From Laetmonice hystrix (taxonomy: Eukaryota): a stretch of 64,000 nucleotides of DNA. Positions 919 through 20,881 of this stretch are shown in pieces. The position numbers and the translations under genes are program-made. Positions within the stretch are counted from its first letter, which is position 1. The number at the start of each line of letters is the position of its first letter. The stretch is from positions 18,664,001 through 18,728,000 of the forward strand of contig OZ249436.1 in assembly GCA_965235115.1 (NCBI GenBank), written 5' to 3'. The notes below the pieces were generated by a model. It did not search any database. It saw only the letters and a list, made by a program, of their open reading frames with translations, and was not told where the DNA came from.

Positions 919-2212
919 GCCGTACTGTACATTCCGCTCAGCCACCTCCCCAGCTTGGAGCCATCACTGACCGGGACTTGGACGCAGCAAGTCCCGTCAG
1001 CAAGCAGTTGGCCTGCCGGTGTCCTGCCGCGATATGGCCGCGCACTGAACAATTTAACTGGGATAAATCCAGTTAGTTTGACCGGAGTTTTCAATTTTGG
1101 GCACAGAAAACGTATAAAGTACATAATAAGTAAGGCCAATAAGACTTAGGTTGGGTCATAAAATACAATTTAAATACACAATCGTTTAAAGTATGATTGC
1201 TCCGCGCACGACAACCAACGCCATAATCTATTTTGAGCTTTGCACGCCTAAAATTCGAATCTATAAACATGTCAATTGGACTTTTAACAGTCACAATACA
1301 AGAACAAAAATTCTCGAAGACATTTCTTTTTTGGGGTGTGATGCCAATGAGTTAAGAGTGATAAATTCAAAACAAAACATGCTCATGTTTCAGACATGCC
1401 AAGACGTTCGAAGCAACAGAGAGCTGCAAAGAAAAGGGCAGCGCGAAGACCCCTAGAGGTAACAGTATACAACTATTCTGGCTTCACTTAACCATTTAAA
1501 GCAGTGATATACAGGTCAGACTTATATTTAGCAGTACTTGTATTTATCAGGGATGAAACTTCCAAAATAGTGGGTTTCCACTTGTTTATCCCCAGGAGTC
1601 CTGTATATGTCTCTCCTCGCACATAAATTTTTCTGCCCTTTTCCGGTTAGCCCCTATCGGTGAATTACCGTAAAAGATCATGTACAGTCAGACCCCTTTA
1701 AATAGTCCCTCTAATGCTAAATCCATGGATATTTGGATGGTGAACCTAGAGAAGAGTTTTTGGTCCATTTTGTTATCATTAACCGGAATGACCCATTTTC
1801 CGGGTCCAGATGGAATTAATTATGAACATTTGTCGTCACGTTTGTGTCATTAAACTGGACGGCCGACCTTTGAATTACCATTGGTGTCTCGGGCAAGCCA
1901 GGGTGTGAATGGGCAACACCTATTGTGTGTATGAAGCACAGGAGCTTACTACCTTGCATTTCAAACAAAATGAACTCTCTTTGAGCTTAAACGAATTTTC
2001 CCAAATTATATTTAACATTAAAAGAAAAGGATTTTCACAGTGGATACATAGCCAGGCAGACAGGTCCTGAAATTTTAAGCATTGTAACAACAACAACAAA
2101 AAACCTACACTATAACACACATATGGCGTTTAGTATGATCTATGCATATACAGGGTGGCCTGGAAAAAACGGAATAGCATATTTCCAGCATCCCAATATA
2201 TAGGCCTAAAGA

Positions 2213-2545
2213 CAGGGTTCTCGCCAGAAATTTTCGACAGCGTAGTGGTCAAACTAAGGGCAGAGCCCTGGTTAGGGGTACAGGAGGGGCAAACCCCAAG
2301 CTCAGGTAATTTAGGCTATTTTAGAGCCTTATCTTGCGGTCTAGATAGTCAGATGAGAAAGGTTTGTTAAACTAGACAGTAAACAAGCGACATTTTACCG
2401 GTATTCCTGTGGGTTCTGTTGACTTTAGACAAGTTTTTGCCGCTACGCTGGTCAAGAGACAGTGTAGCGGCCTCAAAGACAGTGTAGTGGCCTAAATACA
2501 CAGCGTAGCGGCCCGCTACGCTGAAAAAGGCTGGCGAGAACGCTG
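2213..2545. mobile_element. MITE with 5-bp TSD (hAT5-like), nested in the mariner-like element
   Basis: 15-bp TIRs cagggttctcgccag / ctggcgagaacgctg; aaaga duplicated on both flanks. Confidence 0.8.
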
Positions 2546-2688
2546 AAAGAGTAGGTATGGCAGGAAAGAAAATCTCATAAAACAAGTTCTGTGTAACAAA
2601 AGATGGAGCAAGTAAGATACCAACTAAACAAAGGATTTTACTTCAAACATAACGAAATGTGCAATGTGGCCTACGAAATATTGGGTCA

Positions 2689-3339
2689 CCCGGGATCTCG
2701 CTAGGATTTCAAAATCATTAGCTGCTGTGGCTAACTGAGCAGAGTTTTAATGAGCCACATTCATGATTCATTAGCCACAAAATGGGAATCCTCAATCGTT
2801 TAGTAAAAACGTTTATTTTCCCATATTCATTGTGTAACACCAGTCTTAATCTTATTCATGACTTAACATAGGCCAACAGGGTACCCAGTGGTCCCACATT
2901 TTAAATATTTTGTCATACATTTTTAAAAATTCACAATTTTGAGGTACTCCTTTTTGCAAGATGGCTACAGCCTACAGCAACATCCTTCCACAGGCGTACT
3001 GATCACAGATGCACAGACAGCTGGCTGGTACCAGAAGCTTCCCCTCTAGCTCAAACCCACTCCTTCAACAGGTATATCTGCCACCCACCTCCACTCGCGG
3101 GCCACATCACCTTCCAATGAGGGAACCACCTGGCATTACATAATGCGCTTGAGAAACAGGTCTGCAATTTGATGGGGTCAGGTAGACACAGGCCAAGTCC
3201 GCGAGTGACACTAATCACACTATGGGATAGGTGGGCCGGGAAGGAGACGCCAAAGTAGCGATCGATTAATTAAATTTATTAGCCACATTGCATTTCTATT
3301 TGCCTATGGTGAAGTGGCGAGCGGCTAGCGAGATCTGTG
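2689..3339. mobile_element. MITE with 5-bp TSD (hAT5-like), nested in the mariner-like element
   Basis: TIR cores gatctcgctag / ctagcgagatc; ggtca at 2684-2688 and 3340-3344. Confidence 0.7.
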
Positions 3340-3590
3340 GGTCAGATGGTAATAGTCTGTTATGACAGGGTTAGTATAGTTGACTTGCCACACAAAAATA
3401 GCTCCCGTTAGAAAACTACTCAACCGAATCAGATGATATTGGTGTCAACTTTCATAAAAAGAGTTCCTTTCCTACCATACCAGTCTTTTATGTACCAGCA
3501 TAACGGAATATGCTATTCCGTTTCTTGTGCGCCACCCTGTATTGATTGGTTCATGATCTGGCTACTAGGAGGAGATCTTTTGCAGACCAG

Positions 3591-3935
3591 GGCCCGGTTC
3601 TTTTGTGCAATCTTCGTGAGCTGAGCAGCATTTTTGTGAGCTGAGAAGCAATTTTCGTGAGCTTGTGACGTTAGAAATTAGGCCTTATTGTTTAAGTCTA
3701 GAAGAGTTCCAAAAGTATTGTGACGTCACAGTATCTGAGTGATGACAATAGGACTGTTCCGTCATATATCGCAGGTTGGCTCACTGTGAGCAAGTGCTCA
3801 CGTGAGATTGTGCTCAGGGTAAACAAAAAAACCCGAATAGCTGCTCACGGTGAGCAGTGCTCACGTAAGCAGTAAAGCGGTGCTAAGCTCACCACATCTC
3901 AGCTCACGGTAAGAGGTAAACAAAAGAACCGGGCC
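3591..3935. mobile_element. PIF/Harbinger-like MITE
   Basis: TIRs ggcccggttcttttgt / acaaaagaaccgggcc; 3-bp TSD cag (3588-3590, 3936-3938); internal gtgagc/gctcac repeats. Confidence 0.8.
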
Positions 3936-4038
3936 CAGGTGCACGTTATTTATAAACAGTATAATCTTTATCAAAATTAATAGTAGAATTATATTGTATA
4001 GTACCATAAGAATAATTTACGTTTTTGACGATAGTGTA

Positions 4039-5288
4039 GGGTAACAGGGGGCATTAGAGACCTGGGGGCATTAGTGCCCACTACATGTAACACATATTGT
4101 GAAAGCTATCATGAGGGAGCCATCTTGCCCAATCCAGCCTGGCCAATCATAGCAAGGCTAATATATGTCATTAGGCATAATAAGCCAATAGGGTGGCTCT
4201 TAATATAATGGGGAGGCAAGTTTGAAAATCAGTCCACAGTAAACCTTCATTTTGCGAAGCCATCTTGCTTTTTTCCTACCAGACGAAACTTTGCAGTTTG
4301 TGCTATATTATTGTGTTTGACACTTGTTTTGGAGTTGAAGAGAATTCTTTTACTGAAAAATCAGTTGGTGAGTATTATTTCAGTACTTTTGAAAGGAAGT
4401 GGGTGGTAATATGATGAAAATGGGCACATTTAATTACATGGGTTAGTGTCGGCCATTTTGGTTTTCCAGTATCAGTCACTTTGTGGAGTCTTGTGTTGAA
4501 GCTTGGCATTTGAAGTAAAATCTACCCATAAAATGATCAATTAACATGCACCAACATTGAATATCATTAGATTATAAAAGATTAACATTGATGCTTTCTA
4601 CTTTCTAAAGAACTTGCTTGCCTAAAATTATCCATTTCTCAAGCGGTCATTAATGCCCCCCAAAAGGGGGTCATTAATGCCCCATCTAGGTCAGAAAATT
4701 ATAATTATTGTATTTTCCCTTTTATAGTGTTTGTACTTTTATGTGTCAATGACAAGTATATATATGTATGCTACCATATAGTTATACTGTAGGGTCAGCT
4801 AATAGCTTATTAGGTTTTAGAACAATAATTTCAAAAGTGGTCACTAATGCCCCCTCTTTTTGAACACTACAGAGTTCAAAATGGTTCGCAACTCGGGTTA
4901 TAACAAGAAAGATCTTTATTACTCTTATAATTTTCATGGTATATAGCCTTTTTGAACATTTTATTGCTTTTGAAAATGCTGTTTTTTTGTGTAAAATAAA
5001 AGAATGAGCAAAGTTGTTGTACATGTTAACTTTAAGTGTACTTTATTGCCAATGGTCATTAATGCCCCCAGTGGTGGTCACTAATACCCCGGCAACGGGG
5101 GCATTAGTGACTTTTGAAAATTAAAGCCTATTATAATTCTTAAGCGAGAATAGTGAATAATGTATGTATAATTGGATAAGTCTTGGGCATCTGGTAAATT
5201 AGGAATACAAATTTCAAGGTGCCTCCTCAAGATAATTTTTGTGTACCCCATAATATAAAAAGGGGGTCACTAATGCCCCCAGTTACCC
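4039..5288. mobile_element. Non-autonomous TA-flanked DNA transposon (Tc1/mariner-pogo-like)
   Basis: TIRs gggtaacagggggcattag / ctaatgcccccagttaccc, flanked by TA; repeated internal ggggcattag/ctaatgcccc motifs; no ORF. Confidence 0.8.
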
Positions 5289-6875
5289 TATAGGCCTAGT
5301 GTGCTTTTTTTACCCACAAACTGGCCATTGAAAATCCTGTGCGTGCACGGGTCTGGTAAAAAAAAAACGGTTGCAATATCTCGACTGCTGAAAATGGACG
5401 ATAATGGAGGATTTTTGGCTTCATAGTCACTACAGTGGTAAGTAGCACTTGGAAATTAGCATTCAAAAATAAAAAGCCCAGATATACCGGGGGTATTCAA
5501 TAAAGGCATTAGTTTGTGTTCTGAATGCATAATTTAAAAAAAAAACTTTGTTATAAAGTTCCAAATTAGGCCGACTTGTCATGGCCGTAAAATGACAGAG
5601 GTGAAACATTACTTTAGAGATGCATAGTGGTAAAATGAAACACTTTTGGAACTAAACAACTAGGGATGACGTTAATAGGCCTAATAATAATATTTTTTCT
5701 AATCGGTCTGGCACCCAAAATTGCCTCCGTACGATAGCACACTAGACACAAATTTTTATTGTACTCCTAAGTGTTACTGTAACATGAGTCAGTTTTCGTC
5801 TTCCAGTGTATTGCAGAATGGGCAAGAATAAGATTAGGAATAAGAACTACACAGATTAGCAGCAACAGGGCCCAGGACTACGACATAATTATTTAGAGCT
5901 TTTGATGCAAGAATTTTTAAGCTTTTGAAACTCGAATATTTTTTTCTATAGCATGCAGGGGTTTTCACTGCAATGCAGCTCTGTCTCCGAATCTGGATTG
6001 CCATAAATGTTAACATATGTGATCTACACACAAATCTAAGCAAAAATCAATGGTAAAATGGAACATCCTCGTCAGCCGAAAATACCTATCAACAAGTCTA
6101 AGCAAGGTCAGATGTAGCATCTCGTCAGCCGAAAATGGACAAAAATGTGCAGGTTCTTTGCATTGAGACATGTCTCGTGGTAAGTAGTAATCAGAAATAC
6201 GCATACAATAATACAAGAAGCCCAGTTATATCCAATAAAGGCATAAGTTTGTGTTGTGAATGCGTATTTCTAAAATATAGGTCTGTAGCCCTAAAAACCA
6301 GTTGCATGCTATCCATGATAGTGTCCTACACATGGTCTTTTACGGTAAAAAAAAAACAATGCCAAATGTCTCCCCTAGAACTGTAAAGCGCCCCCTAGGG
6401 AGCAGTCCCGCCCCCTTCAAAACCCGTGATATAAACCCTGAAAGTTTGCTTTGTTTCATTTACGTTGCAGATCTTAAAAAGACTCTAAATTGAAACTGTA
6501 TTGATTGGTGTAGATATTTTAAATATAAAGGGTCTCAAGGTAAAAATATTGCTGTATGCTTACCATGTTCTGAAAGACTAAAATACTGTTTTTTCGGGTG
6601 TATACAGCAGGTTTCTCAGATTTATGTAACCGTGATTTAAGAGTGGCTTGTATGTAGCCATCCTGATTTTGAACTTACTCAACCGATTTAGACAGTTGAA
6701 TACAATATCACCAGGTCGCGCCTTGTGGCATACATTGATTCAGGCCCAGTAAATTCCCTGGACTTTGATGTAACATAAAGGTGAGGTAAATTACAGCAAT
6801 CTAGTACAGTACAAAAATTGCTTATTGCCATCAGTTGTTTCTCTTTGATCTTAACAAACATTATCCTTTTTCTCT

Positions 6876-9800
6876 TTGCAGCTGAGAGGCTGCACGGAGG
6901 TTGGTGACCTCACGGAGGATGATCAGGCCCTCCGTTCAAAAAAACCTGTCCCTGGATCGGAGGTCTCTGACCTCACGGAGGTTGATCAGGCCCTCCGTTC
7001 AACAAAACCTGTCCCTGGATCAGAGGTCTCTGACCTCACGGAGGCTGTCCACCTCCGTACAAAAAATAATGGACCTGGTACAATGTATCCCCCCGTACCA
7101 GAAGGATCAAATGACGTGTCAAAAACTATGGATACAAATGATGTGCAAAAAACTATGGATACAAATGACGTGCAAAAAACTATGGATACAAATGACGTGT
7201 CAAAAACTATGGATCTCAGTATCATGAATCTCAGTATCACAAAACATGTTCCTGTTACTTGTATCGAAAAACATGTTCCTGTTACTTGTATCACAAAACC
7301 TGGTCCTGTTACTTGTATCGCAAAACCTGGTCCTGTTACTTGTATCACAAAACCTGGTCCTGTTACTTGTATTACTGTACCACAAGTATCAAAATCAAAC
7401 TTGTCAAGTGACAATATGAAACCAAACATGCAAAGTGACAGTTTGCCAAACAAGCCAATTCCCAGTCTACCAACCATGCACAGTACTAGTATTACAGATG
7501 CAATCGGTACCAGTTTACCAGTGCAGCACAGTACCAGTCTCCCAGATGAACACTATAAACGTGAACATGGCAAACAGACCAACCGCATATCCAGCAACCA
7601 TGCCAACATTACGCCAGGTCAGCAATCTAAGAATGTACCAGATCAGCAAACAAGGAGTACACAAAACATACCAAGTATCAAGGACATTAACAGTGTACAA
7701 GACAAGTCTGGTATCCATCCACCACAAGGACAGACTAACAGTGTTGATAGCGGGAAAATGACTACAAGTAACCTTCTGAATCAAACTTTGAAAAACTCAT
7801 CGAGTGACTGCTGTTCTGCTTATAGTGAAACTTCCGATATTGTTATTGAAACATGTGTTGTTCCAGGCAGTATGCACCAGGGGAATGCCAAATTTCCAGA
7901 CTCAGTCAGAGGTAGATTTTGTGTAGGTGCTGCCGTAGTAGCCATTGAAAGGCTCCAGAATATGAGAAATGTCTCAACAGCTGACGTTGATAGAGTTCTT
8001 ATTGAAGGTTCTACTGTATATCAAAACGTTCGAAACAAACTAAGAGAACAAAGGTTTAATCTACCAGATGACTATCTCTCATTCAGTAATCTTCCCCATC
8101 AGTTAGAGACTACCAACAGTCAGTTCGTGTGTGATATGAACGAAAGTGATCTGTCACTGGGTACCTGTGTAAGCATTGATGATGACAATGTATCACTTGC
8201 CGAAGCTGTAAAAGAGACGTTTGATCGACACAATGCAGGTCTCATAATCATAGGTCTTGAAGCCATCAGTGTATTTCTGAATTGTAAAGGACAATTCTGC
8301 CTCTTTGACTCTCATTCAAGAGATATACAAGGTCAGCAAACTTGCAATGGAACAGCCATATTTATGTGTTTTCCAACCTTGAGAGAATTACAAGACCAGT
8401 TACTGAAATTTGTGTGTAGTACTACAAATGATCCATGTATTGTCAGATACGAAATGCAACCAGTACAGATAACACATGATGATGGGAACCTGACCATGAT
8501 TTCTGGTGTGAGAACTAAAAAGTATGTAGAAAGAAGTGATTTGCCTGTTGTACAGCCAGTGCAAAATGTTGAGTTATCGGATCGTGTCTGTAAGAACTCT
8601 CATGGAATTCAATGTTCCAACAGATTTTCCATTTTAACTGAACCTACTGACACGCACAGAACAGACAAACAATTAACAGTTCATGATCAGCAAGATGAAC
8701 AGTCAACCGATAAAATACCCTCACATCTGTCTGAACCACTGCAAAGCAATGGAGTGATTTCAAGTAAATCATGTGACACTGACATAGACACTGTCTATGG
8801 TAACATTAGTCAAGCTGACGATTGCTTTTCACAGTACAATAAACAAAGATTGTCACTCAGTAATGCGCTCATAAGTCTCATGTGTCTAACAAAATGTGAA
8901 CAATATCAACCTTCTGATCTTAACTATGTACTTCTAGAGGGGGCTCGACTTTGTGGCAAATCACAGGCAAAGGTTGACACAAACAATATGGAGAAGGCAG
9001 TCATGAAACTCCATGAACAAACTGATGGATCCTGTGTTGTGGAAAATATACAGTCCGTTGACATTGCTTTGAGCGGTGGTATGAAAACTCGGAAGCAAAA
9101 AAGCACAAATCTGGCCAATGAGGTTCAAAAGGCGTTTTCTGTTTCAAACAGCCTGATTATATCTACAGGATATGGCTTCCTTACTGCCTTCAAGACGAAA
9201 CATGACTCATGGGTAGTATTTAATCCCAGTCCATACAAGGTAAAAGAACCGCAGGTTGGAAAAGCAATGCTTGTTGTGTGCAAAAGTGTAGACCAAGCTA
9301 GTGAAGTTATCGAAAACCTACTGAAAAACATGAAGAAAACCGTTACACGTTGTCGACTTGTTGCATTAACAGTTGTAAACATCACAGGCAGTGTTGGCAG
9401 CTCAATGGAAGACTTGGCCCCAACAGACAGTGCTCAAAGAAATAATAATCAAAAGACTGAACTTGAAACACATGACAGAAAGGAATACATGAGAAAATAT
9501 ATGAGAAAGAGAAGAGCAGATTGCCAATTCCTACAGACTGAAAGACTGTACAAGAAGCAACGTAGGCTCAATCTAGCAAATAAACGTGCTGACCGGGAAT
9601 ACATTAACAAAAAGCGTCTAGATGCAAGTTTCCAAGAAAGGGAACGAGAATACATAAAGAAACAAAGACTAGATTCAGGCTTCCAACAAAATGAACGAGA
9701 ACGTATCAAGAAACGAAGATTAGATTCAGGCTTCCAACAAGATGAACGAGAATACATGAGAAAACAAAGACTAGACTTGCAATTTAAGGAAAATGGAAGA

Positions 9801-12800
9801 CAGTACACCCAAAAAAGACGACTCAATTTAGAGATTAAAAGTAATGAAAGTAGATCAAAAAAATGTAAATACATAAGTGATATAACGTACCGTGAAAAAT
9901 GTATACAGTATAGTAAGACAAAGTATACAACTGATGAAACATACAGGGACAAAATGAAATGTTACAGTTCACAAAAATACAAACAAAATCTGGATTTCCA
10001 AAGCAAGACAAAAAGCTACAGTTCTCAGAAATACAAACAAAATCTGGATTTCCAAAGAAAGACAAAAAGCTACAGTTCTCAGAAATACAAACAAAATCTG
10101 GATTTCCAAAGAAAGACAAAAAGCTACAGTTCTCAGAAATACAAACAAAATCTGGATTTCCAAAGAAAGACAAAAAGCTACAGTTCTCAGAAATACAAAC
10201 AAAATCTGGATTTCCAAAGCAAGACAAAAAGCTACAGTTCTCAGAAATACAAACAAAATCTGGATTTCCAAAGAAAGACAAAAAGCTACAGTTCTCAGAA
10301 ATACAAACAAAATCTGGATTTCCAAAGAAAGACAAAAAGCTACAGTTCTCAGAAATACAAACAAAATCTGGATTTCCAAAGAAAGACAAAAAGCTACAGT
10401 TCTCAGAAATACAAACAAAATCTGGATTTCCAAAGAAAGACAAAAAGCTACAGTTCTCAGAAATACAAACAAAATCTGGATTTCCAAAGAAAGACAAAAA
10501 GCTACAGTTCTCAGAAATACAAACAAAATCTGGATTTTAGAGAGAAGGTGAAAAGTTACAGCAGAATAAAGTACCAACAAAATGCATTGTTCAGGTCAAA
10601 AATAAATGACGCACAGAGATTAAAATACCAAACCAATATTCGATATCAGGAATGGAAAAGAAATTCAGTGCAGTTCAAATATCTAGACATCATGAATGAT
10701 CCTAAGTTAAGGAAGCGTATGAAAAAGATGAAAAGACGACAGTACATGAGAAATGCTATAGCACTTAGACTAAGAGCTCGTCAGAGGAAAGAACGAAATG
10801 ATGAGCATCGTAAAGAGATTCAAAACGTGAAAACTATTTTTCATAGCAAAGTTCAGGAGTACCCAGAGTATGTGTGTTCAGTTTGTCATAGACTGCTTTT
10901 CAAAAAACAGGTTTTGAAATGTGATAAAACAAAATATGAAACGTCTGCTTCTCAGAAACGTTTGGCTAGAGCCTGCATTACTGAAGATAAATTACACAAT
11001 TGTAATCCAAAATCCACACAAACTTGTCATGTACTAAGGGAATCACGGAGAGACCTGTACATATGCCATACTTGCGACAGATATTTGAAAGCTGGGAAAA
11101 TTCCACACGAAGCATACACAAATAAACTGGAATTGCAGAAACTACCCCACGAACTACAAACATTGAATATACTGGAGAAACACCTCATCTCGAGAATTGT
11201 ACCATTCATGAAACTCATCACATTACCAAAAGGTGGCCAAAAAAAATTGAAAGGACCATGTGTTTTGGTACCGTCAGATTTACAAGATACAATAAATAGT
11301 CTCCCCAGAAGTGACGGAGACAACCCAGGTATCATTCGGCTCAAAATGAAAAGGAAGCTTTCTTATGAAGGTCATTATGAGTACAAGCAAGTTGATATGA
11401 AAAAGGTTCATGATGCTCTTAGGTATTTAAAAGAACAAATTGCAAATGTGCATTATGCTGACATTGAAATTGATCAATCAAGACATGTGCAAAATGACTG
11501 TGGAAAACTTGACTGTACTGAGGCTGATGAGCAACACACATGTGAAACTTCCAAAAATGAAAATACTGATAAGATTGTGTCCAATGATAATGATGAACAA
11601 AATGATTGTGAGGAGGTGAGAACAGGACCTCTATTAGACACGTTCCTTATGCCTGTTGACATGGTCCAGGAGGCCTTACCATTGTGTCCAGATAGTATTT
11701 TGTCTATTGCGCCGTGTGAAAAAAATAGACCCACGAATTTATATGCAAACAAATCAGGTGAAGCCCTTGCGTTTCCGAATCATTTCCCAGATGGTCGAAA
11801 TACTTTAACAGAAGAAAGAGCAGTTGAATTATCCCCATCAAAATATTTTCAGGCGAGACTGATGAACGTAGATAATCGTTTTGCAAAGGACCCACAATAC
11901 ATATTCTTTGCATTGTACATCACAGAATTGAAATTCATGGCCAGCAACATATCTATTGCACTTAGAAAGGGAAGAAAGCAAACAAAAGATGGAAACAAAA
12001 TAACAGCAGGCACATTATCTCAGAGACAAGGCATAGATCATGTCACCAGAGAAGATACAGGTTTCCGACACTTTCCCACACTGAAAGGTTCACCAGATTA
12101 CTGGAAAATGACCCAACACGATTTGTTTGCCATGATCAGACAACTTGGTATTCCAACATTCTTTTGTACATTTAGCTGTAACAATGATTGGCCTGAAATT
12201 GTGACTGCTATAAAAGCTCAGCAGGGACAAACGGTTGATGTTGATTCTTTGTCATGGGAAGAAAAGTGCAACATTCTGGCATCCAATCCCGTTACTTGTG
12301 CACGTATGTTTGATCATCGAGTGAAACTGTTCCTCAACGAAGTGATCATGTCTCCAGCAAAACCAATCGGTGAAGTGATTGATCACTTTTACAGAGTTGA
12401 ATGGCAGGCAAGAGGAAGTCCTCATATACATTGTTTATTCTGGGTTAAAGACGCACCAGTTCTAGACCGAGATTCAGACCAAGCTGTATGTGATTTTATT
12501 GATCAGTTTATCTCGTGTCAAGTTCCACCCGAAGGTGACGAATTACATGAAAAAGTTACCCGCTTTCAGAAACACAGTAAGCATCATACAAAATCATGCA
12601 AAAAAGGAAATCGCCCATGTAGGTTCAACTTCCCAAAACCAGTTGCAAAGAGAACATTTGTGTCAAGACGTGCAACCATGCCTGACGGACAGTCACCAAG
12701 CAAGGCGGACATGCATCATGCATCAGAACAGTTGTCAAAAGTGAGAGACTTGTTGAATGAACACATTGAAAATGAAAATGTGTCAATAGATGACCTCTTA

Positions 12801-14411
12801 CAGAAAGCAGGACTGACATGGCAAACATATAAACAGTATTTCGATATTGCCACAAAGAAAGTATCCATTGTAATGAAACGAGAATATAAAGACTGTTGGA
12901 CAAACCCTCACAACCCAGCTCTCCTTGACATATGGAATGCTAACATGGACATACAGTACATCACAGACCCATACAGTTGTGTTATGTACATTCTGTCGTA
13001 CATCAGTAAAGCGGAGCATGAACTGTCAGAAATTCTACGGAACGCTCAGAGAGAGCTCAAAGAAGGTAACATAGACCTGAAAACTGAAATGAGGAAATTA
13101 GGCAATGTCTACCTGAACTACCGAGAAGTAAGTTGTCAGGAAGCCGCACATCGCATGTGTAATCTACACTTGAAAGAATGCTCTCGTGCAGTTGTTTACC
13201 TACCAGTGGATCAAAATGCAACAAGAATGAGTCTACCATTATCACAAATCGAAGCAAAAGCAAAAGCAAACGTGGAGGATGATGAAATCTGGATGAAAAA
13301 CATTGTAGATAGATACCAAGCACGACCTGATACTGTGGAGTTTGATAACATGTGTCTCGCTCAGTTTGCTTCAGAATACAGAATGGTGTATGGACAGGCA
13401 AAGGGTAGAAATGCAATTACACTGAAAAACGACTGTGGTACAATACAGAAAAGAAGAAGTGAAAACTTTGCTGTGATTCGGTACCCAAGGCATTCCAAGA
13501 CAACAAAAGCAGAGAAATTTTATCAAGCTCAAATGAAGGTTTACTTGCCATGGAGACACCAGTGTCAATTAAAGCCCCAAGCATATGCTACATATGAGGA
13601 ATTCTTTGAAAATGGAGCGGTCAGACTGAGTGAGGACCATGACATAGAACCTGTAAAACTGATTGTGAGTGAAAATAGGCAGAAATATGAAAAAGATGCA
13701 GATGCCTTGCAAGAAGCTTGGGAAATGATGCAAAATTCCGAGAATTTGGAAGATGCATGGGCCAGCATTGCTAATGAAGCGGAGATAAGTAGATTGGAAG
13801 CAGAGCGAGAAAACCTAGCTTTTGAAGAGTGCTGTGATGAACCACTAGCTAACGATCACGACTGTATTGGTGACGAGGATAGAAGAAATATCCCAGGAGG
13901 AATCGCTATAGACCACAGTGATGATGGATGTGTTACCAAAGCTGTTAGGCCAATGTTAAAGAGTATGAATAAAAAACAACAACAGATATTTTACACAATA
14001 CGAAAGTGGTGCCTAGATAAAGTCAATGGTAAACGCCCTGAGCCGTTTAGGATATTCCTTAGTGGTGCAGCAGGTGTTGGAAAATCCCTCTTAATCAAAT
14101 GTATCTACTATGAAGCTACCAAAATTCTGCTTGGGCAACAAAGTGACCAGAACCTACCACCAGTATTCCTGACAGCAACAACCGGACTGGCTGCATTCAA
14201 TGTTGATGGAACGACAGTTCATTCTCTTCTCAAAATAATCAAACCCCGCAAAGGCCCATACATACCACTGACTGAAAGTGTCTTGAATACCATGAATACA
14301 ACCTTATGTGAAATGAAAATTCTTGTAATCGATGAAATTTCAATGATGGGAAGCAACATACAATGTACTGAATTATGTGCACAAACGATTGGGACAACTC
14401 AAACACAGTAA
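6876..14411 (+). CDS. Helentron RepHel polyprotein, N-terminal part: repeats, VTD/Peptidase C76-like deubiquitinase, pseudo-peptidase copy, basic repeat arrays, Zn-finger region, HUH Rep, first part of PIF1-like helicase
   Basis: 2511-codon ORF. Peptidase: GSMHQG..RGRFCVG..FDSHSR. Zn finger: YVCSVCHRLLF..YICHTC. Rep: GSPDYW, LGIPTFFCTFS, RVEWQARGSPHIHCLFW (HUH), NMDIQYITDPYSCVMYILSYISK (catalytic Tyr region). Helicase: SGAAGVGKS (Walker A), ILVIDEISM (Walker B). The TTG at 6876 lies within a splice acceptor (ttttctctttgcag|ctg, exon start 6882); the first in-exon ATG is at 7083. The real frame leaves this ORF at about 14354. Confidence 0.95.
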   Translation: MQLRGCTEVGDLTEDDQALRSKKPVPGSEVSDLTEVDQALRSTKPVPGSEVSDLTEAVHLRTKNNGPGTMYPPVPEGSNDVSKTMDTNDVQKTMDTNDVQKTMDTNDVSKTMDLSIMNLSITKHVPVTCIEKHVPVTCITKPGPVTCIAKPGPVTCITKPGPVTCITVPQVSKSNLSSDNMKPNMQSDSLPNKPIPSLPTMHSTSITDAIGTSLPVQHSTSLPDEHYKREHGKQTNRISSNHANITPGQQSKNVPDQQTRSTQNIPSIKDINSVQDKSGIHPPQGQTNSVDSGKMTTSNLLNQTLKNSSSDCCSAYSETSDIVIETCVVPGSMHQGNAKFPDSVRGRFCVGAAVVAIERLQNMRNVSTADVDRVLIEGSTVYQNVRNKLREQRFNLPDDYLSFSNLPHQLETTNSQFVCDMNESDLSLGTCVSIDDDNVSLAEAVKETFDRHNAGLIIIGLEAISVFLNCKGQFCLFDSHSRDIQGQQTCNGTAIFMCFPTLRELQDQLLKFVCSTTNDPCIVRYEMQPVQITHDDGNLTMISGVRTKKYVERSDLPVVQPVQNVELSDRVCKNSHGIQCSNRFSILTEPTDTHRTDKQLTVHDQQDEQSTDKIPSHLSEPLQSNGVISSKSCDTDIDTVYGNISQADDCFSQYNKQRLSLSNALISLMCLTKCEQYQPSDLNYVLLEGARLCGKSQAKVDTNNMEKAVMKLHEQTDGSCVVENIQSVDIALSGGMKTRKQKSTNLANEVQKAFSVSNSLIISTGYGFLTAFKTKHDSWVVFNPSPYKVKEPQVGKAMLVVCKSVDQASEVIENLLKNMKKTVTRCRLVALTVVNITGSVGSSMEDLAPTDSAQRNNNQKTELETHDRKEYMRKYMRKRRADCQFLQTERLYKKQRRLNLANKRADREYINKKRLDASFQEREREYIKKQRLDSGFQQNERERIKKRRLDSGFQQDEREYMRKQRLDLQFKENGRQYTQKRRLNLEIKSNESRSKKCKYISDITYREKCIQYSKTKYTTDETYRDKMKCYSSQKYKQNLDFQSKTKSYSSQKYKQNLDFQRKTKSYSSQKYKQNLDFQRKTKSYSSQKYKQNLDFQRKTKSYSSQKYKQNLDFQSKTKSYSSQKYKQNLDFQRKTKSYSSQKYKQNLDFQRKTKSYSSQKYKQNLDFQRKTKSYSSQKYKQNLDFQRKTKSYSSQKYKQNLDFQRKTKSYSSQKYKQNLDFREKVKSYSRIKYQQNALFRSKINDAQRLKYQTNIRYQEWKRNSVQFKYLDIMNDPKLRKRMKKMKRRQYMRNAIALRLRARQRKERNDEHRKEIQNVKTIFHSKVQEYPEYVCSVCHRLLFKKQVLKCDKTKYETSASQKRLARACITEDKLHNCNPKSTQTCHVLRESRRDLYICHTCDRYLKAGKIPHEAYTNKLELQKLPHELQTLNILEKHLISRIVPFMKLITLPKGGQKKLKGPCVLVPSDLQDTINSLPRSDGDNPGIIRLKMKRKLSYEGHYEYKQVDMKKVHDALRYLKEQIANVHYADIEIDQSRHVQNDCGKLDCTEADEQHTCETSKNENTDKIVSNDNDEQNDCEEVRTGPLLDTFLMPVDMVQEALPLCPDSILSIAPCEKNRPTNLYANKSGEALAFPNHFPDGRNTLTEERAVELSPSKYFQARLMNVDNRFAKDPQYIFFALYITELKFMASNISIALRKGRKQTKDGNKITAGTLSQRQGIDHVTREDTGFRHFPTLKGSPDYWKMTQHDLFAMIRQLGIPTFFCTFSCNNDWPEIVTAIKAQQGQTVDVDSLSWEEKCNILASNPVTCARMFDHRVKLFLNEVIMSPAKPIGEVIDHFYRVEWQARGSPHIHCLFWVKDAPVLDRDSDQAVCDFIDQFISCQVPPEGDELHEKVTRFQKHSKHHTKSCKKGNRPCRFNFPKPVAKRTFVSRRATMPDGQSPSKADMHHASEQLSKVRDLLNEHIENENVSIDDLLQKAGLTWQTYKQYFDIATKKVSIVMKREYKDCWTNPHNPALLDIWNANMDIQYITDPYSCVMYILSYISKAEHELSEILRNAQRELKEGNIDLKTEMRKLGNVYLNYREVSCQEAAHRMCNLHLKECSRAVVYLPVDQNATRMSLPLSQIEAKAKANVEDDEIWMKNIVDRYQARPDTVEFDNMCLAQFASEYRMVYGQAKGRNAITLKNDCGTIQKRRSENFAVIRYPRHSKTTKAEKFYQAQMKVYLPWRHQCQLKPQAYATYEEFFENGAVRLSEDHDIEPVKLIVSENRQKYEKDADALQEAWEMMQNSENLEDAWASIANEAEISRLEAERENLAFEECCDEPLANDHDCIGDEDRRNIPGGIAIDHSDDGCVTKAVRPMLKSMNKKQQQIFYTIRKWCLDKVNGKRPEPFRIFLSGAAGVGKSLLIKCIYYEATKILLGQQSDQNLPPVFLTATTGLAAFNVDGTTVHSLLKIIKPRKGPYIPLTESVLNTMNTTLCEMKILVIDEISMMGSNIQCTELCAQTIGTTQTQ
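6897..7375 (+). repeat. Coding minisatellites in the RepHel N-terminus: 63-bp x~2.5, 27-bp x4 (NDVQKTMDT), 27-bp x5 (KPGPVTCIT)
   Basis: gaggt(t/c)(gg/tc)tgacctcacggagg at 6897, 6960 and 7023; aatgacgtgcaaaaaactatggataca units about 7110-7217; aaacctggtcctgttacttgtatcaca units about 7242-7375. Confidence 0.9.
9963..10556 (+). repeat. 54-bp coding tandem repeat x11 (YSSQKYKQNLDFQRKTKS)
   Basis: Near-identical units tacagttctcagaaatacaaacaaaatctggatttccaaagaaagacaaaaagc with 54-bp period, preceded by degenerate 51-bp (EREYIKKQRLDSGFQQN-type) units at about 9590-9845. Confidence 0.95.
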
Positions 14412-16065
14412 AGAACTGTTTGGAGGTGTATCTATTCTTGCTGTTGGGGATTTCTATCAGCTTCCACCTGTAAGGGCCGGTTCGCCAATTTGTGTACCAA
14501 ATACCTGTGATTTGTGGATGGAAAACTTTAAGTGTGTTGAACTTACAGAAATAATGAGACAGAAAGACGACGCCGTATTTGCAGCACTGTTAAATCGGCT
14601 CAGAACAAAGCCAAAAACTGAAAGTTTGAGTGAATCCGATACAAATACACTGTTATCAAGGATTACCCCATCTGACAAATGTCCGCAAGATGCTCTCTTT
14701 ATCTATGCGAAAAACAAAGAAGTAGATGAACACAATGAAACCATGTTACAAAGTAAGTGCACACAGATCTGTGACATTAGAGCTATTGATGTGGTCCGAA
14801 ACAGAAAGACTGGAAAACTGGAGGAAAGGGCAGCAACAAAATCAAATGACAAAAGTGACAGCTTACCAAGTTGGTTAAGAATAGCAGTTGGTGCAAGAGT
14901 CATGGTAACAAAGAACACTGACACTGGACACGGAATAACGAATGGTGCCATAGGAACTATAACTGCCATATTACCTGCACAACACGGTAAACCATTACCA
15001 GAAGCAGTGTGTATTAAATTTGACAACGACAAAGTTGGCCGTGGACTGGCGGAAAAAAAGAATAACAGCACAGTTCCAATTGGTTCAGTGAAATTAATGC
15101 CATATGAAGAATCTCTGGATCCTGTAGAACAAGAAAGAAAAGGAGGCATCAGGCGGCAGTATCCATTGAGATTAGCTTGGGCATGTACAATACACAAAGT
15201 TCAAGGGCTCACTGTGGACAAAATAGTGATATCCATGAAAACCATGTTTGAATCTGGACATGCTTATGTTGCCCTTTCCAGAGTGACCAACATAGCTGGT
15301 CTCTATCTCCTTGATTACAATGCCAATAAAATATACAGGAATGAAGGAGTTGCACAGGGCCTGGAGCTAATGGAACCACTCGTGCCAAATGAACTTGATA
15401 TCCAAGAAAAAAGCCTGCTAATTGTCCATCACAATGTTGAAGGATTGGCTAAGAATTTTGAAAGTACAAGAAATCACTTCCAGATATTCACTTCAGACGT
15501 TGTCTTACTAACGGAAACGTGGCTCACTACTTCTGAAGATCTATCAAACTTGCAGCACCCAGACTTTAATCTGTTATCAAAAACAAGACAAGAAAGTTAT
15601 GATATTAAATCAATGGCAAAGCTTGAAAAAGGTGGTGTGGCAGTATACGTGAGAAAAACAACCGTACATAGTCTTCTACATCTATCTGTCAGAAACATTG
15701 AATTCATTTCAGTTGTGTTGGTCACTGATGAAAAACCATTAACTATTTGTGTAATTTACAGACCGTCCAGATACTGCACAAACTTGTTCTGTCCAGCTCT
15801 TGAAGAGCTTATCCATAAAATGGAAGAAACCGTAAAGGATTCTGGTTATGTAATCGCAGGTGACTTGAATGAAGATTTAATGAAAGGCCAGAACACGATC
15901 AAAAACGTGATGTCCCGAAATAATTACCAACAAGTAATCACTCAAGAAACGACCCTAGGAAGTACCCTGATAGATGTTATCTATGTAAAAAATGTGGACT
16001 TCAAAAACTGTGGTGTATTACAAACTTATTACAGTTATCATGATGCAGTATTCTTAAAAATTTAA
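14377..16065 (+). CDS. Helentron RepHel polyprotein, C-terminal part: PIF1-like SF1B helicase motifs III-VI plus APE/EEP endonuclease; continuation of the upstream ORF across a frameshift
   Basis: Helicase: FGGVSILAVGDFYQLPPV, LTEIMRQKDD, RQYPLRLAWACTIHKVQGLT, AYVALSRV. Endonuclease: HHNVEGL, LLTETWL, GGVAVY, IYRPS, AGDLN, STLIDVIY, YSYHDAV. The frame is already homologous from 14362 (NVLNYVHKRL). Confidence 0.95.
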   Translation: MHKRLGQLKHSKELFGGVSILAVGDFYQLPPVRAGSPICVPNTCDLWMENFKCVELTEIMRQKDDAVFAALLNRLRTKPKTESLSESDTNTLLSRITPSDKCPQDALFIYAKNKEVDEHNETMLQSKCTQICDIRAIDVVRNRKTGKLEERAATKSNDKSDSLPSWLRIAVGARVMVTKNTDTGHGITNGAIGTITAILPAQHGKPLPEAVCIKFDNDKVGRGLAEKKNNSTVPIGSVKLMPYEESLDPVEQERKGGIRRQYPLRLAWACTIHKVQGLTVDKIVISMKTMFESGHAYVALSRVTNIAGLYLLDYNANKIYRNEGVAQGLELMEPLVPNELDIQEKSLLIVHHNVEGLAKNFESTRNHFQIFTSDVVLLTETWLTTSEDLSNLQHPDFNLLSKTRQESYDIKSMAKLEKGGVAVYVRKTTVHSLLHLSVRNIEFISVVLVTDEKPLTICVIYRPSRYCTNLFCPALEELIHKMEETVKDSGYVIAGDLNEDLMKGQNTIKNVMSRNNYQQVITQETTLGSTLIDVIYVKNVDFKNCGVLQTYYSYHDAVFLKI

Positions 16066-16342
16066 TATTTTATGTTGTACTTAAACTGCTGGTGTGAACA
16101 AATGTACCAGACTATAAAATTCCCCAACTGAATATTATACACATTACTGCATGAATTTTTACTCGAGATTATTCTCAATAACAATGCATTTCAACCATGC
16201 ACATGTACTATTTTATTATATTACTACTTGAGCAGTAAATCATATTCTACTAGTAAATCATAGATCTTCTTATATTCTATGATGAATTTATACAGATATG
16301 TGATTGTATTGATCATCAATGAAATATTTCAACCAATTATAA

Positions 16343-16803
16343 GAACAGTAACGGATAACAATGATGGGCAAACAGTAACGGATAACAATGATGGGCAAAC
16401 AGTAACGGATAACAATGACAGGCAAACAGTAACGGATAACAATGACGGGCGAACAGTAACGGATAACAATGACGGGCGAACAGTAACGGATAACAATGAC
16501 GGGCGAACAGTAACGGATAACAATGACGGGCGAACAGTAACGGATAACAATGACGGGCGAACAGTAACGGATAACAATGACAGGCGAACAGTAACGGATA
16601 ACAATGACGGGCGAACAGTAACGGATAACAATGACGGGCGAACAGTAACGGATAACAATGACGGGCGAACAGTAACGGATAACAATGACGGGCGAACAGT
16701 AACGGATAACAATGACGGGCGAACAGTAACGGATAACAATGACGGGCGAACAGTAACGGATAATAATGACGGGTGAATAGTAACGGATAACATGGACAGG
16801 CAA
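16343..16803. repeat. 27-bp minisatellite, ~17 copies
   Basis: Unit gaacagtaacggataacaatgacgggc, head-to-tail, no spacers. Confidence 0.95.
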
Positions 16804-17147
16804 ATACTACCATTATACCAGATGAACAAACTAGCAGTATACCAAATGGGTCTGGGGGCGTCCATACTTGGGCGGGGGTATGGTAGGGGAGGGAGATTAT
16901 ACAAATGGGTAAGGGGACGTCCATCGTGGGGAGGGGTTGGCTAAGGATATGGTATAGGGGAGGGTGATTATGTATAGTAAACATGTAAAATGTTGTAAAA
17001 GATCTGTATATCTTTTCGTGTATTGTTTCCATTGTTATTTATAATTAATTAATCTTGTCATAAATGAACAAATTGGAATGTAACTCATTGTTCCTGAACG
17101 AAAACCACGACTAGCACTGTACCAGACGGGCCGCATATATACACAAA

Positions 17148-18430
17148 ATACCGGTATACCAGACGGTCAAACTACCAGGATACCAGATGGACAAACTACC
17201 GGTATACCAGATGGACAAACTACCAGTATACCAGATGGTCAAACTACCAGGATAACAGATGGACAAACTACCGGTATTCCAGACAGTCAAACTACCAGGA
17301 TACCAGATGGACAAACTACCGGTATACCAGATGAACAAACTACCGGTATACCAGATGAACAAACTACCGGTATACCAGATGGTCAAACTACCGGTATACC
17401 AGATGGTCAAACTACCAAGATAACAGATGGACAAACTACCGGTATACCAGATGGACAAACTACCGATATTCCAGACGGTCAAACTACCAGGACACCAGAT
17501 GGACAAACTACCAGGAAACCAAGTGGACAAACTACCGGTATACCAGATGGTCAAACTACCAGGATACCAGATGGACAAACTACCAGTATACCTGATGGAC
17601 AAACTACCGGTATTCCAGACAGTCAAACTACCAGGATACCAGATGGACAAACTACCGGTATACCAGATGGACAAACTACCGATATTCCAGACGGTCAAAC
17701 TACCAAGACACCAGATGGTCAAACTACCAGGAAACCAGGTGGACAAACTACCGGTATACCAGATGAACAAACTACCGGTATACCAGCTGGTCAAACTACC
17801 AGGATACCAGATGGACAAACTACCGGTACACCAGATGAACAAACTACCTGTATTCCAGACAGTCAAACTACCAGGATACCAGATGGACAAACTACCGGTA
17901 TACCAGATGAACAAACTACCGGTATACCAGATGGTCAAACTACCAGGATACCAGATGGACAAACTACCTGTATTTTAGACGGTCAAACTACCAGGATACC
18001 AGATGGACACACTACCACTGAACGAGTCCCAGTATACCAGATGGACAGACTGCCACTATAACTGTCAGGCGAACCACCACCATAGCGGATGGACAAACTG
18101 CCGAAATACCTCTATCAGTATACCCGATAGAAAAACGAACACTATACTATCTCGGCCCACTACCACTATCGGTATATCAGATGGACAAACGCCACTATAC
18201 ATTATACCAGATGGACAAAGTACCAGTATACCTGTCAGGCCAACGACCACCATACAGGATGGACATGCTACCGATATAGGCCTACCTGTATCAGTATAAC
18301 TGATAGAAAAACTAACAGCATACGATAGTCGGGCCCAACTATACCAAATGGACAAGCTACCACTACCAGGATACCCGACGAGAAACTACCACTATACCAC
18401 ATGGACACACTAGCAGTCTACCAGACGGGC
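17148..18430. repeat. 24-bp minisatellite (~36 regular copies to ~18015, degenerate copies to ~18430)
   Basis: Unit actaccggtataccagatggacaa with recurrent variants; a diverged pair of units also at about 16805-16850. Confidence 0.95.
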
Positions 18431-19269: not shown

Positions 19270-20881
19270 TTACACCATTATTTTCTAGGTCACGTGACCC
19301 ATGACGTCATCATGACATCATTGCAATCTTCTAAGGTGTATAAGCCAACCATGCAAGATATAGCCCCAGTTTCTATCTAATACGAATCGGAAGTCATAAA
19401 GACGGGACACCCAGGGGATGGGATCCATTGTGGTATCACCACAACGTGTCTAGTTCTTTGCGTCGTAGTAGTAGTAGTAGTAGTAGTAGTAGTAAACAGT
19501 GGCGTCTATCTCAGTCAGTTTTCAAGATATCTCAATCAAATTTGGCACACATCTTGACCATGACAAGGACTGGTCAGACAATGAGTTGTGACATATCACG
19601 TGACGTGACGTATGACGTCACGTCATGACGTTCATATTGGGAATTTCCAAACCCCATCATGGCGTTTTAATCAGGCAAGGGTCTAGTCTAACATGGACGC
19701 TTCATTTGTCATTTGACCTTGAACTTTGGGAGAACTGGGTCCTCAGTCACAAATCTCTTAAATCGCTACTCCTTCTTCATTTTTTGGTGAAATTCGACAA
19801 TATTAGGCAGAAGGACTCTCTAACATGAGCTTGTCTCAAATCATCAAAAGATAAGCGATTTGACTAATATTCGCTGAATCACGTGACTTTGAAATTTCGA
19901 AAAATTGTCAATTTTCTAGAACTTGTAAACGGTGCCAGATTTGGCATTGGTTACTATTAAACACAGATAAGAAGTCATTATGCTCTTTTATGATATTTTT
20001 TTTCAGGTCACGTGACCATTTTTAAAAATTAGAGGGAAAAAACAAAAAGAAAAAGAAACGTGACTCGGCCTGGGATTGAACGCGGGACCCTTCCGGTAGA
20101 AGTCCAAAAAAATAGGTGACTCGGCCTGGGATTGAACCGGCGACCCATAGCATGTGAGTCAAGACACTTATCGCCAGTGCTACGCCATCTGACAAGCTAA
20201 TACTGGATTGAACTGGTACTGATTACCACAGCCAGTGAACCTATATTTTGTGAGGGCTATAACTTGCTATCACTTGGTATCGTCATCCTTAAGGTCACGT
20301 GACCTGTGACGTCGTAAAGATGTCATCGATATTTTCTAAGGGATATAACTTGTTAATGCTTGAAGTTAGACCCATAGTTACTATTGAACACGAATAGGAA
20401 GTCATGTATACTCTTTCGTTTGGCATCATTATTTCTTAGGTCACGTGACCCATGACATAACGATGTCATCGATATTTTCTCAGGGTTTTAACTTGTAAAT
20501 GGTAGGAGTTAGACCCATAGTTAGTATTGAATATAAACAGGAAGTCCTCATTATGTTCTTTCAATTGACACCAAGATTTATTCTGTTGTGTGATCTATTA
20601 CATCCTTATGACGTAACTGAGCCCTTCTAAGGATTGGTAGAAGCCTGTAACTAGTAAACGGTGCTAGATACACCTATAGTTATTTTTGAACATGAATAGG
20701 AAGTCCATTGAGATCAATATTTATGACGTAGCATAAGGTCATAATGACGTAACTTCCATCTTCTAAGGCTCATAAGTCGTCACGGGTGCAAGATAGTACC
20801 ATAGTTATCCCTATTCAGAACATGTTACATGGGACACCCCGGGGATGGGATCCATTGTGGTACTCCACAACGTATCTAGTT
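19270..20881 (+). mobile_element. Two head-to-tail non-autonomous Helentrons (HINE family)
   Basis: 3' termini GGGGATGGGAT + hairpin ttgtgg..ccacaa + CTAGTT at 19414-19455 and 20841-20881; (TAG)n microsatellite at about 19465-19493; ~145-bp internal repeats at about 20280-20820. Confidence 0.8.
20060..20186 (-). other. tRNA-like (pol III promoter-like) cassette with a partial duplicate, inside the HINE
   Basis: The minus strand reads gtagcactggcg (A-box-like)...ttgactcacatgc...ggttcaatcccaggccgagtcac followed by T-rich runs; the 3' half is duplicated at 20060 and 20116. Confidence 0.55.

What the first reader, a model, noticed from the sequence alone, without database searches (positions are those of the whole stretch)
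6882..16065. ~3,050-aa Helentron polyprotein: deubiquitinase + pseudo-deubiquitinase + repeat arrays + Rep + PIF1 + AP endonuclease
Seen: one frame (apart from a single 7-bp lesion) with all HUH, catalytic Tyr, Walker A/B, helicase III-VI and endonuclease motifs intact, behind a ~1,300-aa N-terminal extension. Established: endonuclease-bearing Helentrons exist, and some animal Helitrons carry herpesvirus-tegument-like (VTD) or OTU deubiquitinases. Inference: this is a young, probably still active family whose transposase carries a ubiquitin-directed counter-defence module and long repeat scaffolds. It is the most substantial system in the window.
Basis: partly seen in the sequence, partly recalled or inferred. 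Interest (0 to 1): 0.75.

Follow-up and report, generated by a model that had tools for sequence, protein, structure and literature searches.

The report
Helentron transposase with dead second deubiquitinase
This is a frameshifted copy of a known kind of animal rolling-circle transposon whose large protein carries one domain predicted to cut ubiquitin and, unusually, a second such domain that has lost its catalytic residues yet is conserved across related families, so it likely serves as a binding module.

Summary
This is a Helentron (HLE2) transposase of about 3,060 aa: VTD deubiquitinase, second VTD, basic 17/18-aa repeats, zinc motifs, DUF6570, HUH Rep, PIF1 helicase and AP endonuclease. 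Seven extra bases just after Walker B break this copy. Position 6882 is a likely splice acceptor, with a likely first coding exon at 1396-1458. VTD1 keeps its Cys and Asp-x-His and matches the zebrafish Helentron VTD structure 8ADD (TM 0.89). VTD2 is a true VTD (independent HMM, fold search) but has Ser for Cys, Asn for Asp and no His. The scaffold is published: Helentrons with one or two active VTDs (Erven 2022), and repeat arrays occur in most relatives scored. What I did not find in print is the stable active-plus-dead pair. It occurs in 9 of 121 Helentron proteins, all in one clade, and in 18 of 18 full-length relatives. 'Young, active family' is not shown for this copy: it is broken, no near-identical intact sister was seen, and the open multi-copy relatives are unnamed records elsewhere. 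'Counter-defence' is untested. The scan had no earlier look-alike of the VTD region. Verdict: a new variant of a known kind, of moderate interest.

The parts
644..921 (+). Left part of a HINE-type (non-autonomous Helentron-like) sequence; candidate left terminal region of the large element (inferred, boundary not proven)
   Evidence: 70-83% like 19480-19708; earlier scan note e1-8074978 on a stack at 1-918
967..1000 (+). Strong DNA hairpin upstream of the gene; role unknown
   Evidence: -12.9 kcal/mol, z -3.8, 0 of 200 shuffles as good; chosen from a hairpin scan
1396..1458 (+). Likely first coding exon (21 codons, ATG, basic), phase 0
   Evidence: Preceded by TTTCAG, followed by GTAACA, in phase with 6882; splicing not shown by RNA
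1459..6881 (+). Likely intron (5,423 bp) holding inverted-repeat-bounded insertions at 2148-3542, 3586-3940 and 4037-5290
   Evidence: relatives P0163, P0164 and P0165 begin with the same acceptor-like FSLQ reading
6882..7847 (+). Low-complexity N-terminal region with 21-aa and 9-aa repeats; poorly conserved
   Evidence: 15-22% identity to relatives
7848..8477 (+). VTD1, viral-tegument-like deubiquitinase domain with Cys347, Asp476-x-His478 (P0001 numbering); Asn403 replaces an acid kept in all 18 full-length relatives
   Evidence: 8ADD E 2.7e-13; model pLDDT about 95; Foldseek 8ADD TM 0.89, rmsd 2.0
8478..8783 (+). Unconserved linker, predicted disordered
   Evidence: pLDDT under 50; 12-23% identity
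8784..9386 (+). VTD2, same fold, catalytic Cys to Ser, Asp to Asn, His lost (pseudo-deubiquitinase)
   Evidence: HMM from 196 outside-clade VTDs: 60 bits, E 2e-11 at Z=1.8e9; 8ADD top hit by Foldseek E 1.2e-6 and VIA Z 9.5, rmsd 5.0, 157 aligned
9477..10571 (+). Lys/Arg-rich repeat arrays: 17-aa units, then 10.6 copies of an 18-aa unit (54 bp, 99% match)
10875..11483 (+). CxxC...CxxC zinc-binding-like motifs and DUF6570 (HLE2 marker)
   Evidence: PMC11417382 passages
11844..13001 (+). HUH Rep domain (Helitron_like_N) with HUH motif and two catalytic-type Tyr
13965..15290 (+). PIF1-type helicase, split by the frameshift
14357..14363 (+). Seven extra bases after Walker B; shift the frame, stop at 14409-14411
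   Evidence: eight relatives read through without them
15427..16065 (+). AP-type endonuclease domain and stop codon
   Evidence: Exo_endo_phos E 4e-8; motifs aligned to eight relatives
16343..18430 (+). 3' minisatellites (27 bp x 16.7; 24 bp x 36 and decayed units), probably non-coding and inside the element
19273..19456 (+). HINE-type right end with a 7-bp-stem hairpin, ending CTAGTT; candidate 3' end of the large element (inferred)
   Evidence: 92% and 88% like ends at 20831-20881 and 38740-38788; fold z -2.6

Best explanation
This is a frameshifted copy of a Helentron rolling-circle transposon whose single large protein joins a Rep-helicase-endonuclease core to one VTD domain predicted to cut ubiquitin chains and a second, catalytically dead VTD that likely acts as a binding module. 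Shown here: domain order, catalytic residues present in VTD1 and absent in VTD2, VTD fold of both, conservation of VTD2 across the clade, and the frameshift. From established knowledge (HUH and PIF1 families; PMC4067079, PMC11417382): in an intact relative the Rep would nick and join single strands through its Tyr residues and the helicase would unwind the element; the endonuclease is only hypothesised to nick the T-rich target. From homology (PMC9741609): zebrafish Helentron VTDs cleave K48, K63 and K11 chains, and two of three also remove NEDD8, so VTD1 of intact relatives probably does the same and would shield the transposase or its partners from degradation. Inferred: VTD2, tethered by a flexible ~100-aa linker, most likely holds ubiquitin, a ubiquitinated substrate or a host partner near VTD1; the basic helical repeats would likely bind DNA. 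This copy is predicted to be non-autonomous, and its VTD1 may be weakened by the Asp-to-Asn change at 403.
For: VTD1: 8ADD hit E 2.7e-13 with Cys and Asp-x-His aligned, TM 0.89. VTD2: non-circular HMM and fold searches. All 12 clade VTD2 domains in the tree have Ser for Cys and Asn for Asp and lack His, with 28 invariant columns. VTD2 is 36-53% identical among three families, against 12-23% for the adjacent linker and 15-22% for the N-terminus; mean pairwise identity among nine elements is 53% for VTD2 and 59% for VTD1. 18 of 18 full-length open frames among 53 clade proteins examined have active + dead. The nine active+dead proteins form one Rep clade, FastTree support 1.0. Eight relatives read through the lesion site.
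Against: No activity, binding or expression was measured. The window's VTD2 departs at 23 of 56 columns invariant in eight relatives, against 5 of 65 in VTD1 and 27 of 454 in Rep, so constraint on VTD2 looks weaker in this lineage. The segment carrying the acidic pair that binds the ubiquitin tail in DrT1-VTD2 is not conserved in VTD2, which argues against canonical ubiquitin binding. All clade relatives are unnamed ENA records whose contig lengths recur between clusters, so they may come from one assembly. 58 of 121 Helentron proteins had no VTD by my HMM (some may be truncated gene models), so the module is dispensable in other lineages.
Confidence: 0.6

Rival explanations
1. VTD2 is a structural relic: a second VTD that died once in the clade's ancestor and is kept only because it must fold without harming the polyprotein, with no binding job.
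For: Two-VTD Helentrons exist (3 of 121 with two active domains; DrT1 in PMC9741609), so a tandem ancestor is plausible. VTD2 sits on a long branch and is drifting in the window's lineage.
Against: Kept full-length in 18 of 18 full-length relatives, while the linker and N-terminus diverge freely and repeats change in number. The replaced active-site positions are themselves fixed (Ser, Asn) across families 65-80% identical in the core.
Confidence: 0.25
2. VTD2 is an enzyme with a rewired active site, using the invariant Ser at the Cys position or the Cys of the FNPNPC motif.
For: Ser at the nucleophile position and Asn at the Asp position are invariant in 12 of 12 domains; most relatives have a Cys just after.
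Against: No His is conserved near the site, and the window copy has Tyr in place of that Cys. Asp-x-His is invariable in active VTDs and its loss abolishes activity (PMC9741609, section 8).
Confidence: 0.07
3. One reading: this very subfamily is young and still jumping, with the 7-bp lesion private to this copy or an assembly slip.
For: Only one lesion in 9.2 kb; catalytic motifs intact; the 54-bp array is nearly homogeneous (8 of 10 units match the consensus). Many contigs 80-99% alike lie on the coding region in a matching sample.
Against: The long related pieces listed in the coding region are 84-89% identical, and unique non-coding pieces of this copy have the same low depth as other unique pieces (depth is not a copy number, so this is only a hint). 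No listed contig bridges the lesion, but the tables were cut. Three insertions sit in the intron. No genome was held.
Confidence: 0.3
4. The large element is the autonomous master (or a dead copy of it) of the small self-nesting Helentron-type elements beside it, running from their shared left end (about 644) to their shared right end (19456).
For: HINE-type left body at 644-921 and right end at 19273-19456 bracket the gene in the same orientation, and the next HINE body starts directly after 19456.
Against: Shared stretches are only about 270 and 185 bp at 70-92% identity. No inverted-repeat pair of 12 bp or more links 800-6880 to 16066-19400. The element's head would lie upstream of the window. 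The junctions at 921 and 19272 could equally bound later insertions.
Confidence: 0.4

Closest known systems
VTD-bearing Helentrons, zebrafish DrT1 (two active VTDs; structure 8ADD) and DrT2 (VTD + OTU); Erven et al. 2022, PMC9741609 (sections 6, 8, 13 and passages read; supplements searched by term; figures not seen)
   Same: VTD domain(s) in the RepHel frame with a C-terminal AP endonuclease; same fold and Cys/Asp-x-His site. Zebrafish P0197, whose second VTD matches the 8ADD sequence seen, also has 18-aa repeats.
   Different: The second VTD is stably dead here, whereas the paper states that VTDs of presumed autonomous Helitrons keep all catalytic residues apart from pseudogenised copies. 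No OTU was found. Rep identity to named relatives is only about 50%.
HLE2 subgroup b (Helentron) of HELIANO; Li et al. 2024, PMC11417382 (passages read)
   Same: [quoted passage not shown]
   Different: The passages read do not address catalytic state or tandem VTDs. Termini were not resolved here, and subgroup placement was not tested against their tree.
Insect inactive-VTD (iVTD) array proteins; PMC9741609, and beetle proteins P0021, P0031, P0149
   Same: Dead VTD domains kept under selection; several arrays seen here hold one active and several dead domains.
   Different: Those lack transposase domains. VTD2 does not group with them in my tree, and its origin is unresolved.
HINE / DINE-1 and their Helentron partners; Thomas et al. 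2014, PMC4067079 (passages read)
   Same: Candidate 3' palindrome near a T-rich end; small relatives nearby.
   Different: No subterminal inverted-repeat pair found inside the window, and no RPA or OTU frame recognised in the flanks (inspected by eye, one flank frame scanned).

Membership tests
Helentron (HLE2) | HUH Rep domain followed by PIF1 helicase in one protein | tested here: met
   (frame broken by 7 bp in this copy, continuous in eight relatives)
Helentron (HLE2) | AP endonuclease fused C-terminal to the helicase | tested here: met
   Exo_endo_phos E 4e-8; motifs
Helentron (HLE2) | DUF6570 marker and Rep similarity to HLE2 transposases | tested here: met
   DUF6570 E 4e-22; nearest named relatives are fish, amphioxus and bivalve replicase/helicase/endonuclease proteins
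Helentron (HLE2) | Subterminal inverted repeats and 3' palindrome | tested here: inconclusive
   No IR pair of 12 bp or more within the window; candidate 3' hairpin near 19430-19446; the 5' head may lie outside the window
Helentron (HLE2) | Insertion at TT without target duplication | not testable with these tools
   No genome or empty site available; the candidate end reads CTAGTT|CTTT
VTD deubiquitinase (VTD1) | VTD fold with Cys and Asp-x-His triad | tested here: met
VTD deubiquitinase (VTD1) | Acidic residues binding the ubiquitin tail (D376/E377 in DrT1-VTD2) | tested here: not met
   The window copy has Ser-Asn; all 18 full-length relatives keep Asp at the second position
VTD deubiquitinase (VTD1) | Cleaves ubiquitin chains | not testable with these tools
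   Needs an assay
VTD fold (VTD2) | Sequence and structural homology to VTDs | tested here: met
Active VTD deubiquitinase (VTD2) | Cys and Asp-x-His triad | tested here: not met
   Ser, Asn and no His in 12 of 12 domains
Active autonomous element (this copy) | Uninterrupted transposase frame | tested here: not met
   7 extra bases and a stop at 14409-14411

The most novel reading that the evidence does not exclude
A clade of Helentrons has turned a second deubiquitinase domain into a dedicated pseudo-enzyme that traps ubiquitin chains or a host ubiquitin-system factor and feeds or regulates the active domain: a transposon-borne enzyme/pseudo-enzyme pair that parallels the dead-VTD arrays domesticated in insect testis genes. 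The element here would also be the master of the genome's self-nesting small Helentrons.
Probability: 0.3. Interest if true: 0.62.

Novelty: new variant of a known kind. Interest (0 to 1): 0.38.

Why it matters
Why rolling-circle transposons carry deubiquitinases is an open question raised by Erven et al. 2022. A clade that keeps one active and one dead copy shows that the fold is probably valued for more than catalysis. It also offers a natural pair for finding the host target: the dead domain is a ready-made pull-down bait. Dead VTDs were described as domesticated insect genes; here one persists on mobile elements with many open copies. The rest of the architecture is ordinary for Helentrons, and this copy is broken, so the finding refines a known system and does not open a new one.

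Tried and rejected
Own genome: none held, so no count of sister copies or empty sites was possible. JGI metagenome scan with clade alignment A1: 229 pattern matches, none confirmed. Search for longer proteins (372-2000 aa) with VTD2 alone: none of 771 candidates scored (weak evidence). Pfam finds no family for either VTD of this copy, and a PDB sequence search with VTD2 gave only a chance hit; a custom HMM and folding were needed. Predicted complex VTD1 with VTD2: no verdict (score 0.00), not evidence either way. No RNA holder listed. Read laying showed 12 of 359 indels and 32 rows of contig pieces (18,655 not shown), so the state of the lesion in sister copies could not be read. Of 36 listed coding differences, 15 were synonymous and 21 not, a selected subset that I did not use for dating. 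Terminal inverted repeats: best matches were 11 bp, chance level. Origin of VTD2 by duplication of VTD1: not supported, tree unresolved. The 325-aa frame in the 24-bp minisatellite matches only repeat-type Pfam models, and its unit has few routes to a stop in that frame; rejected as evidence of a gene. Print searches: helitron + deubiquitinase + tegument, 2 papers; helentron + ubiquitin, 10; helitron + pseudoenzyme + deubiquitinase, 0; helitron + Herpes_teg_N, 2; viral tegument-like + transposon, 2. Erven Fig. 1b (domain drawings), the source-data archive and Repbase could not be seen and may show a dead VTD in a Helitron.
Full report
OBSERVATION. The window holds two overlapping + strand frames, 6855-14411 and 14347-16065. 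Their products match Helitron_like_N (E 9e-36), DUF6570 (E 4e-22), PIF1 in both halves and Exo_endo_phos (E 4e-8). HUH, two Tyr, Walker A and B, the later helicase motifs and six endonuclease motifs are in place. Eight relatives read straight through the point after Walker B where the window has seven extra bases (about 14357-14363), which shift the frame into a stop at 14409-14411. Discounting them, the frame from 6882 is 3,058 aa.

THE GENE STARTS EARLIER. Position 6882 follows a pyrimidine tract and CAG. At 1396-1458 there is a 21-codon, ATG-led, basic exon bounded by an acceptor and a GT donor, in phase 0 with 6882; my scan for in-phase small exons in between found none. Three relatives' predicted proteins begin with the same acceptor-like FSLQ reading. 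The protein would be about 3,079 aa, and the 5,423-bp intron holds three inverted-repeat-bounded insertions. Splicing is inferred; no RNA run was listed.

VTD1. Residues 323-532 hit one PDB sequence, 8ADD (E 2.7e-13), with Cys and Asp-Ser-His aligned. 8ADD is zebrafish Helentron DrT1-VTD2, for which Cys322, Asp451 and His453 were shown to be essential (PMC9741609, section 8). The AlphaFold model of the tandem region gives two separately folded domains with the same order of helices and strands, joined by a low-confidence linker, and matches 8ADD at TM 0.89, rmsd 2.0. One difference: the position equal to Glu377, whose mutation strongly lowers DrT1-VTD2 activity, is Asn in this copy but Asp in all 18 full-length relatives.

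VTD2. Residues 635-835 give no Pfam or PDB sequence hit. An HMM built from 196 VTD domains outside the clade scores it at 60 bits (E 2e-11 for 1.8 billion proteins) and its relatives at 78-90 bits. Its own model (mean pLDDT 55) has 8ADD as top hit by Foldseek (E 1.2e-6; all six matches under 0.001 are VTD structures) and by VIA-align (Z 9.5, rmsd 5.0, 157 aligned; next is the herpesviral M48 at 7.1). The catalytic Cys is Ser, the Asp is Asn and the His is absent in 12 of 12 clade domains, which share 28 invariant columns. It is conserved: 36-53% identity among three families against 12-23% for the linker. Against this, the window's own VTD2 departs from 23 of 56 otherwise invariant columns, far more than VTD1 (5 of 65) or Rep (27 of 454).

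HOW COMMON IS THE ARCHITECTURE? A Rep search listed 120 of 881 hits. Among these plus the window protein (121), my VTD HMM found none in 58, one active domain in 41, a truncated domain in 10, two active in 3, and active + dead in 9. The nine form one clade in a Rep tree of 120 of the 121 (509 columns, FastTree support 1.0), with the window copy branching first under a midpoint root. Among 53 clade proteins examined, all 18 full-length frames have active + dead, several at 93-96% identity to each other, so related families have been mobile recently with this layout. All are unnamed ENA records, and contig lengths recur between clusters, so they may be one assembly. Periodic repeats upstream of the zinc motif occur in 73 of the 90 proteins where my pattern found that motif (31 not scored; own threshold, no null control), 64 of them with period 18. 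The repeat arrays are thus ordinary for this group. Outside transposons, multi-VTD proteins with one active and several dead domains also turned up, three of them named beetle proteins. VTD2 does not group with them or with VTD1 in a tree of 270 domains.

IS THE FAMILY YOUNG AND ACTIVE? No genome was held. Four runs of one sample hold the stretch and match non-coding pieces without differences, so they are probably the source and not independent. On them, unique pieces at 1500-2193, 6226-6970 and 17980-18648 have depths near 100, while coding bins sum to thousands from many contigs. The long related pieces listed are 84-89% identical and include VTD2 (8964-9423, 55 differences in 460). Depth is not a copy number and the tables were cut, so this only hints at a low-copy subfamily among more distant multi-copy relatives. 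This copy is predicted dead; an intact near-identical sister is neither shown nor excluded.

ENDS. No inverted repeat of 12 bp or more joins the flanks inside the window. HINE-type sequence brackets the gene: a left body at 644-921 and a right end at 19273-19456 with a hairpin and CTAGTT, followed at once by another HINE body. An earlier scan note (e1-8074978) describes a nested stack at 1-918 and gave me this lead. The element may run about 19 kb between these ends and be the master of the small elements, but the junctions could also bound later insertions. I put it at 0.4.

MECHANISM. From known families, an intact relative would transpose by Tyr-linked nicking, helicase unwinding and strand transfer. 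The endonuclease's role at T-rich targets is a hypothesis of PMC4067079 (passages). By homology to DrT1 and DrT2, VTD1 would remove K48, K63 and K11 chains (passages). Erven et al. speculate that this prevents degradation of proteins needed for transposition, perhaps in the male germline. I infer that VTD2 is a tethered binding module. It need not bind ubiquitin in the canonical way, since the segment with the acidic pair is not conserved in it. Rivals are a folded relic (0.25) and a rewired enzyme (0.07).

COMPARISON AND NOVELTY. Erven et al. (PMC9741609; sections 6, 8 and 13 read, supplements searched by term, figures not seen) report that most non-viral VTDs lie in Helentron frames with a C-terminal AP endonuclease, that DrT1 has two VTDs, that VTDs of presumed autonomous elements keep all catalytic residues apart from pseudogenised copies, and that inactive VTDs occur in insect genes outside transposons. 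Li et al. (PMC11417382; passages) place Herpes_teg_N, the endonuclease and DUF6570 in HLE2, the first two enriched in subgroup b. Five literature searches found no description of a conserved dead VTD in a transposase, but Repbase and the paper's figure were not visible. The scan's own notes had no look-alike. Verdict: a Helentron by every coding feature tested, termini unresolved; a new variant through the conserved enzyme/pseudo-enzyme pair; this copy broken; interest 0.38.

Noticed in passing
window:2148-3542: Element with 36-bp terminal inverted repeats and TA at the ends (Tc1/mariner-like MITE by recall), itself holding a 23-bp-IR element at 2213-2545, inside the likely intron.
   Followed up: partly
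window:4037-5290: Element with 26-bp terminal inverted repeats flanked by TA, with many internal copies of its terminal motif; contigs over it have higher depth than unique pieces.
   Followed up: partly
window:3586-3940: 355-bp element with 21-bp inverted repeats and internal short palindromes.
   Followed up: no
window:14355-14363: The seven extra bases sit between two CAA triplets, like a slippage product or an excision footprint; untested.
   Followed up: no
window:17084-18061: The 24-bp minisatellite stays open for 325 codons in one frame (8-aa Thr/Gly/Pro-rich unit); only repeat-type Pfam matches.
   Followed up: partly
window:5378-5539 and 6119-6275: A 160-bp stretch present twice at 71% identity within the intron.
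   Followed up: no
window:26781-27209: A frame with a signal-peptide-like start in a GC-rich region, probably a host gene exon (resembles a prominin N-terminus by recall); no Pfam match.
   Followed up: partly
proteins P0021, P0027, P0031, P0060, P0088, P0149: Arrays of 5-8 VTD domains with a single active one among dead copies; the three named ones are from beetles. The text of PMC9741609 that I read describes insect arrays as inactive.
   Followed up: partly
window:19457-20885 and 38740-38788: Further HINE-type bodies and right ends ending in CTAGTT.
   Followed up: partly
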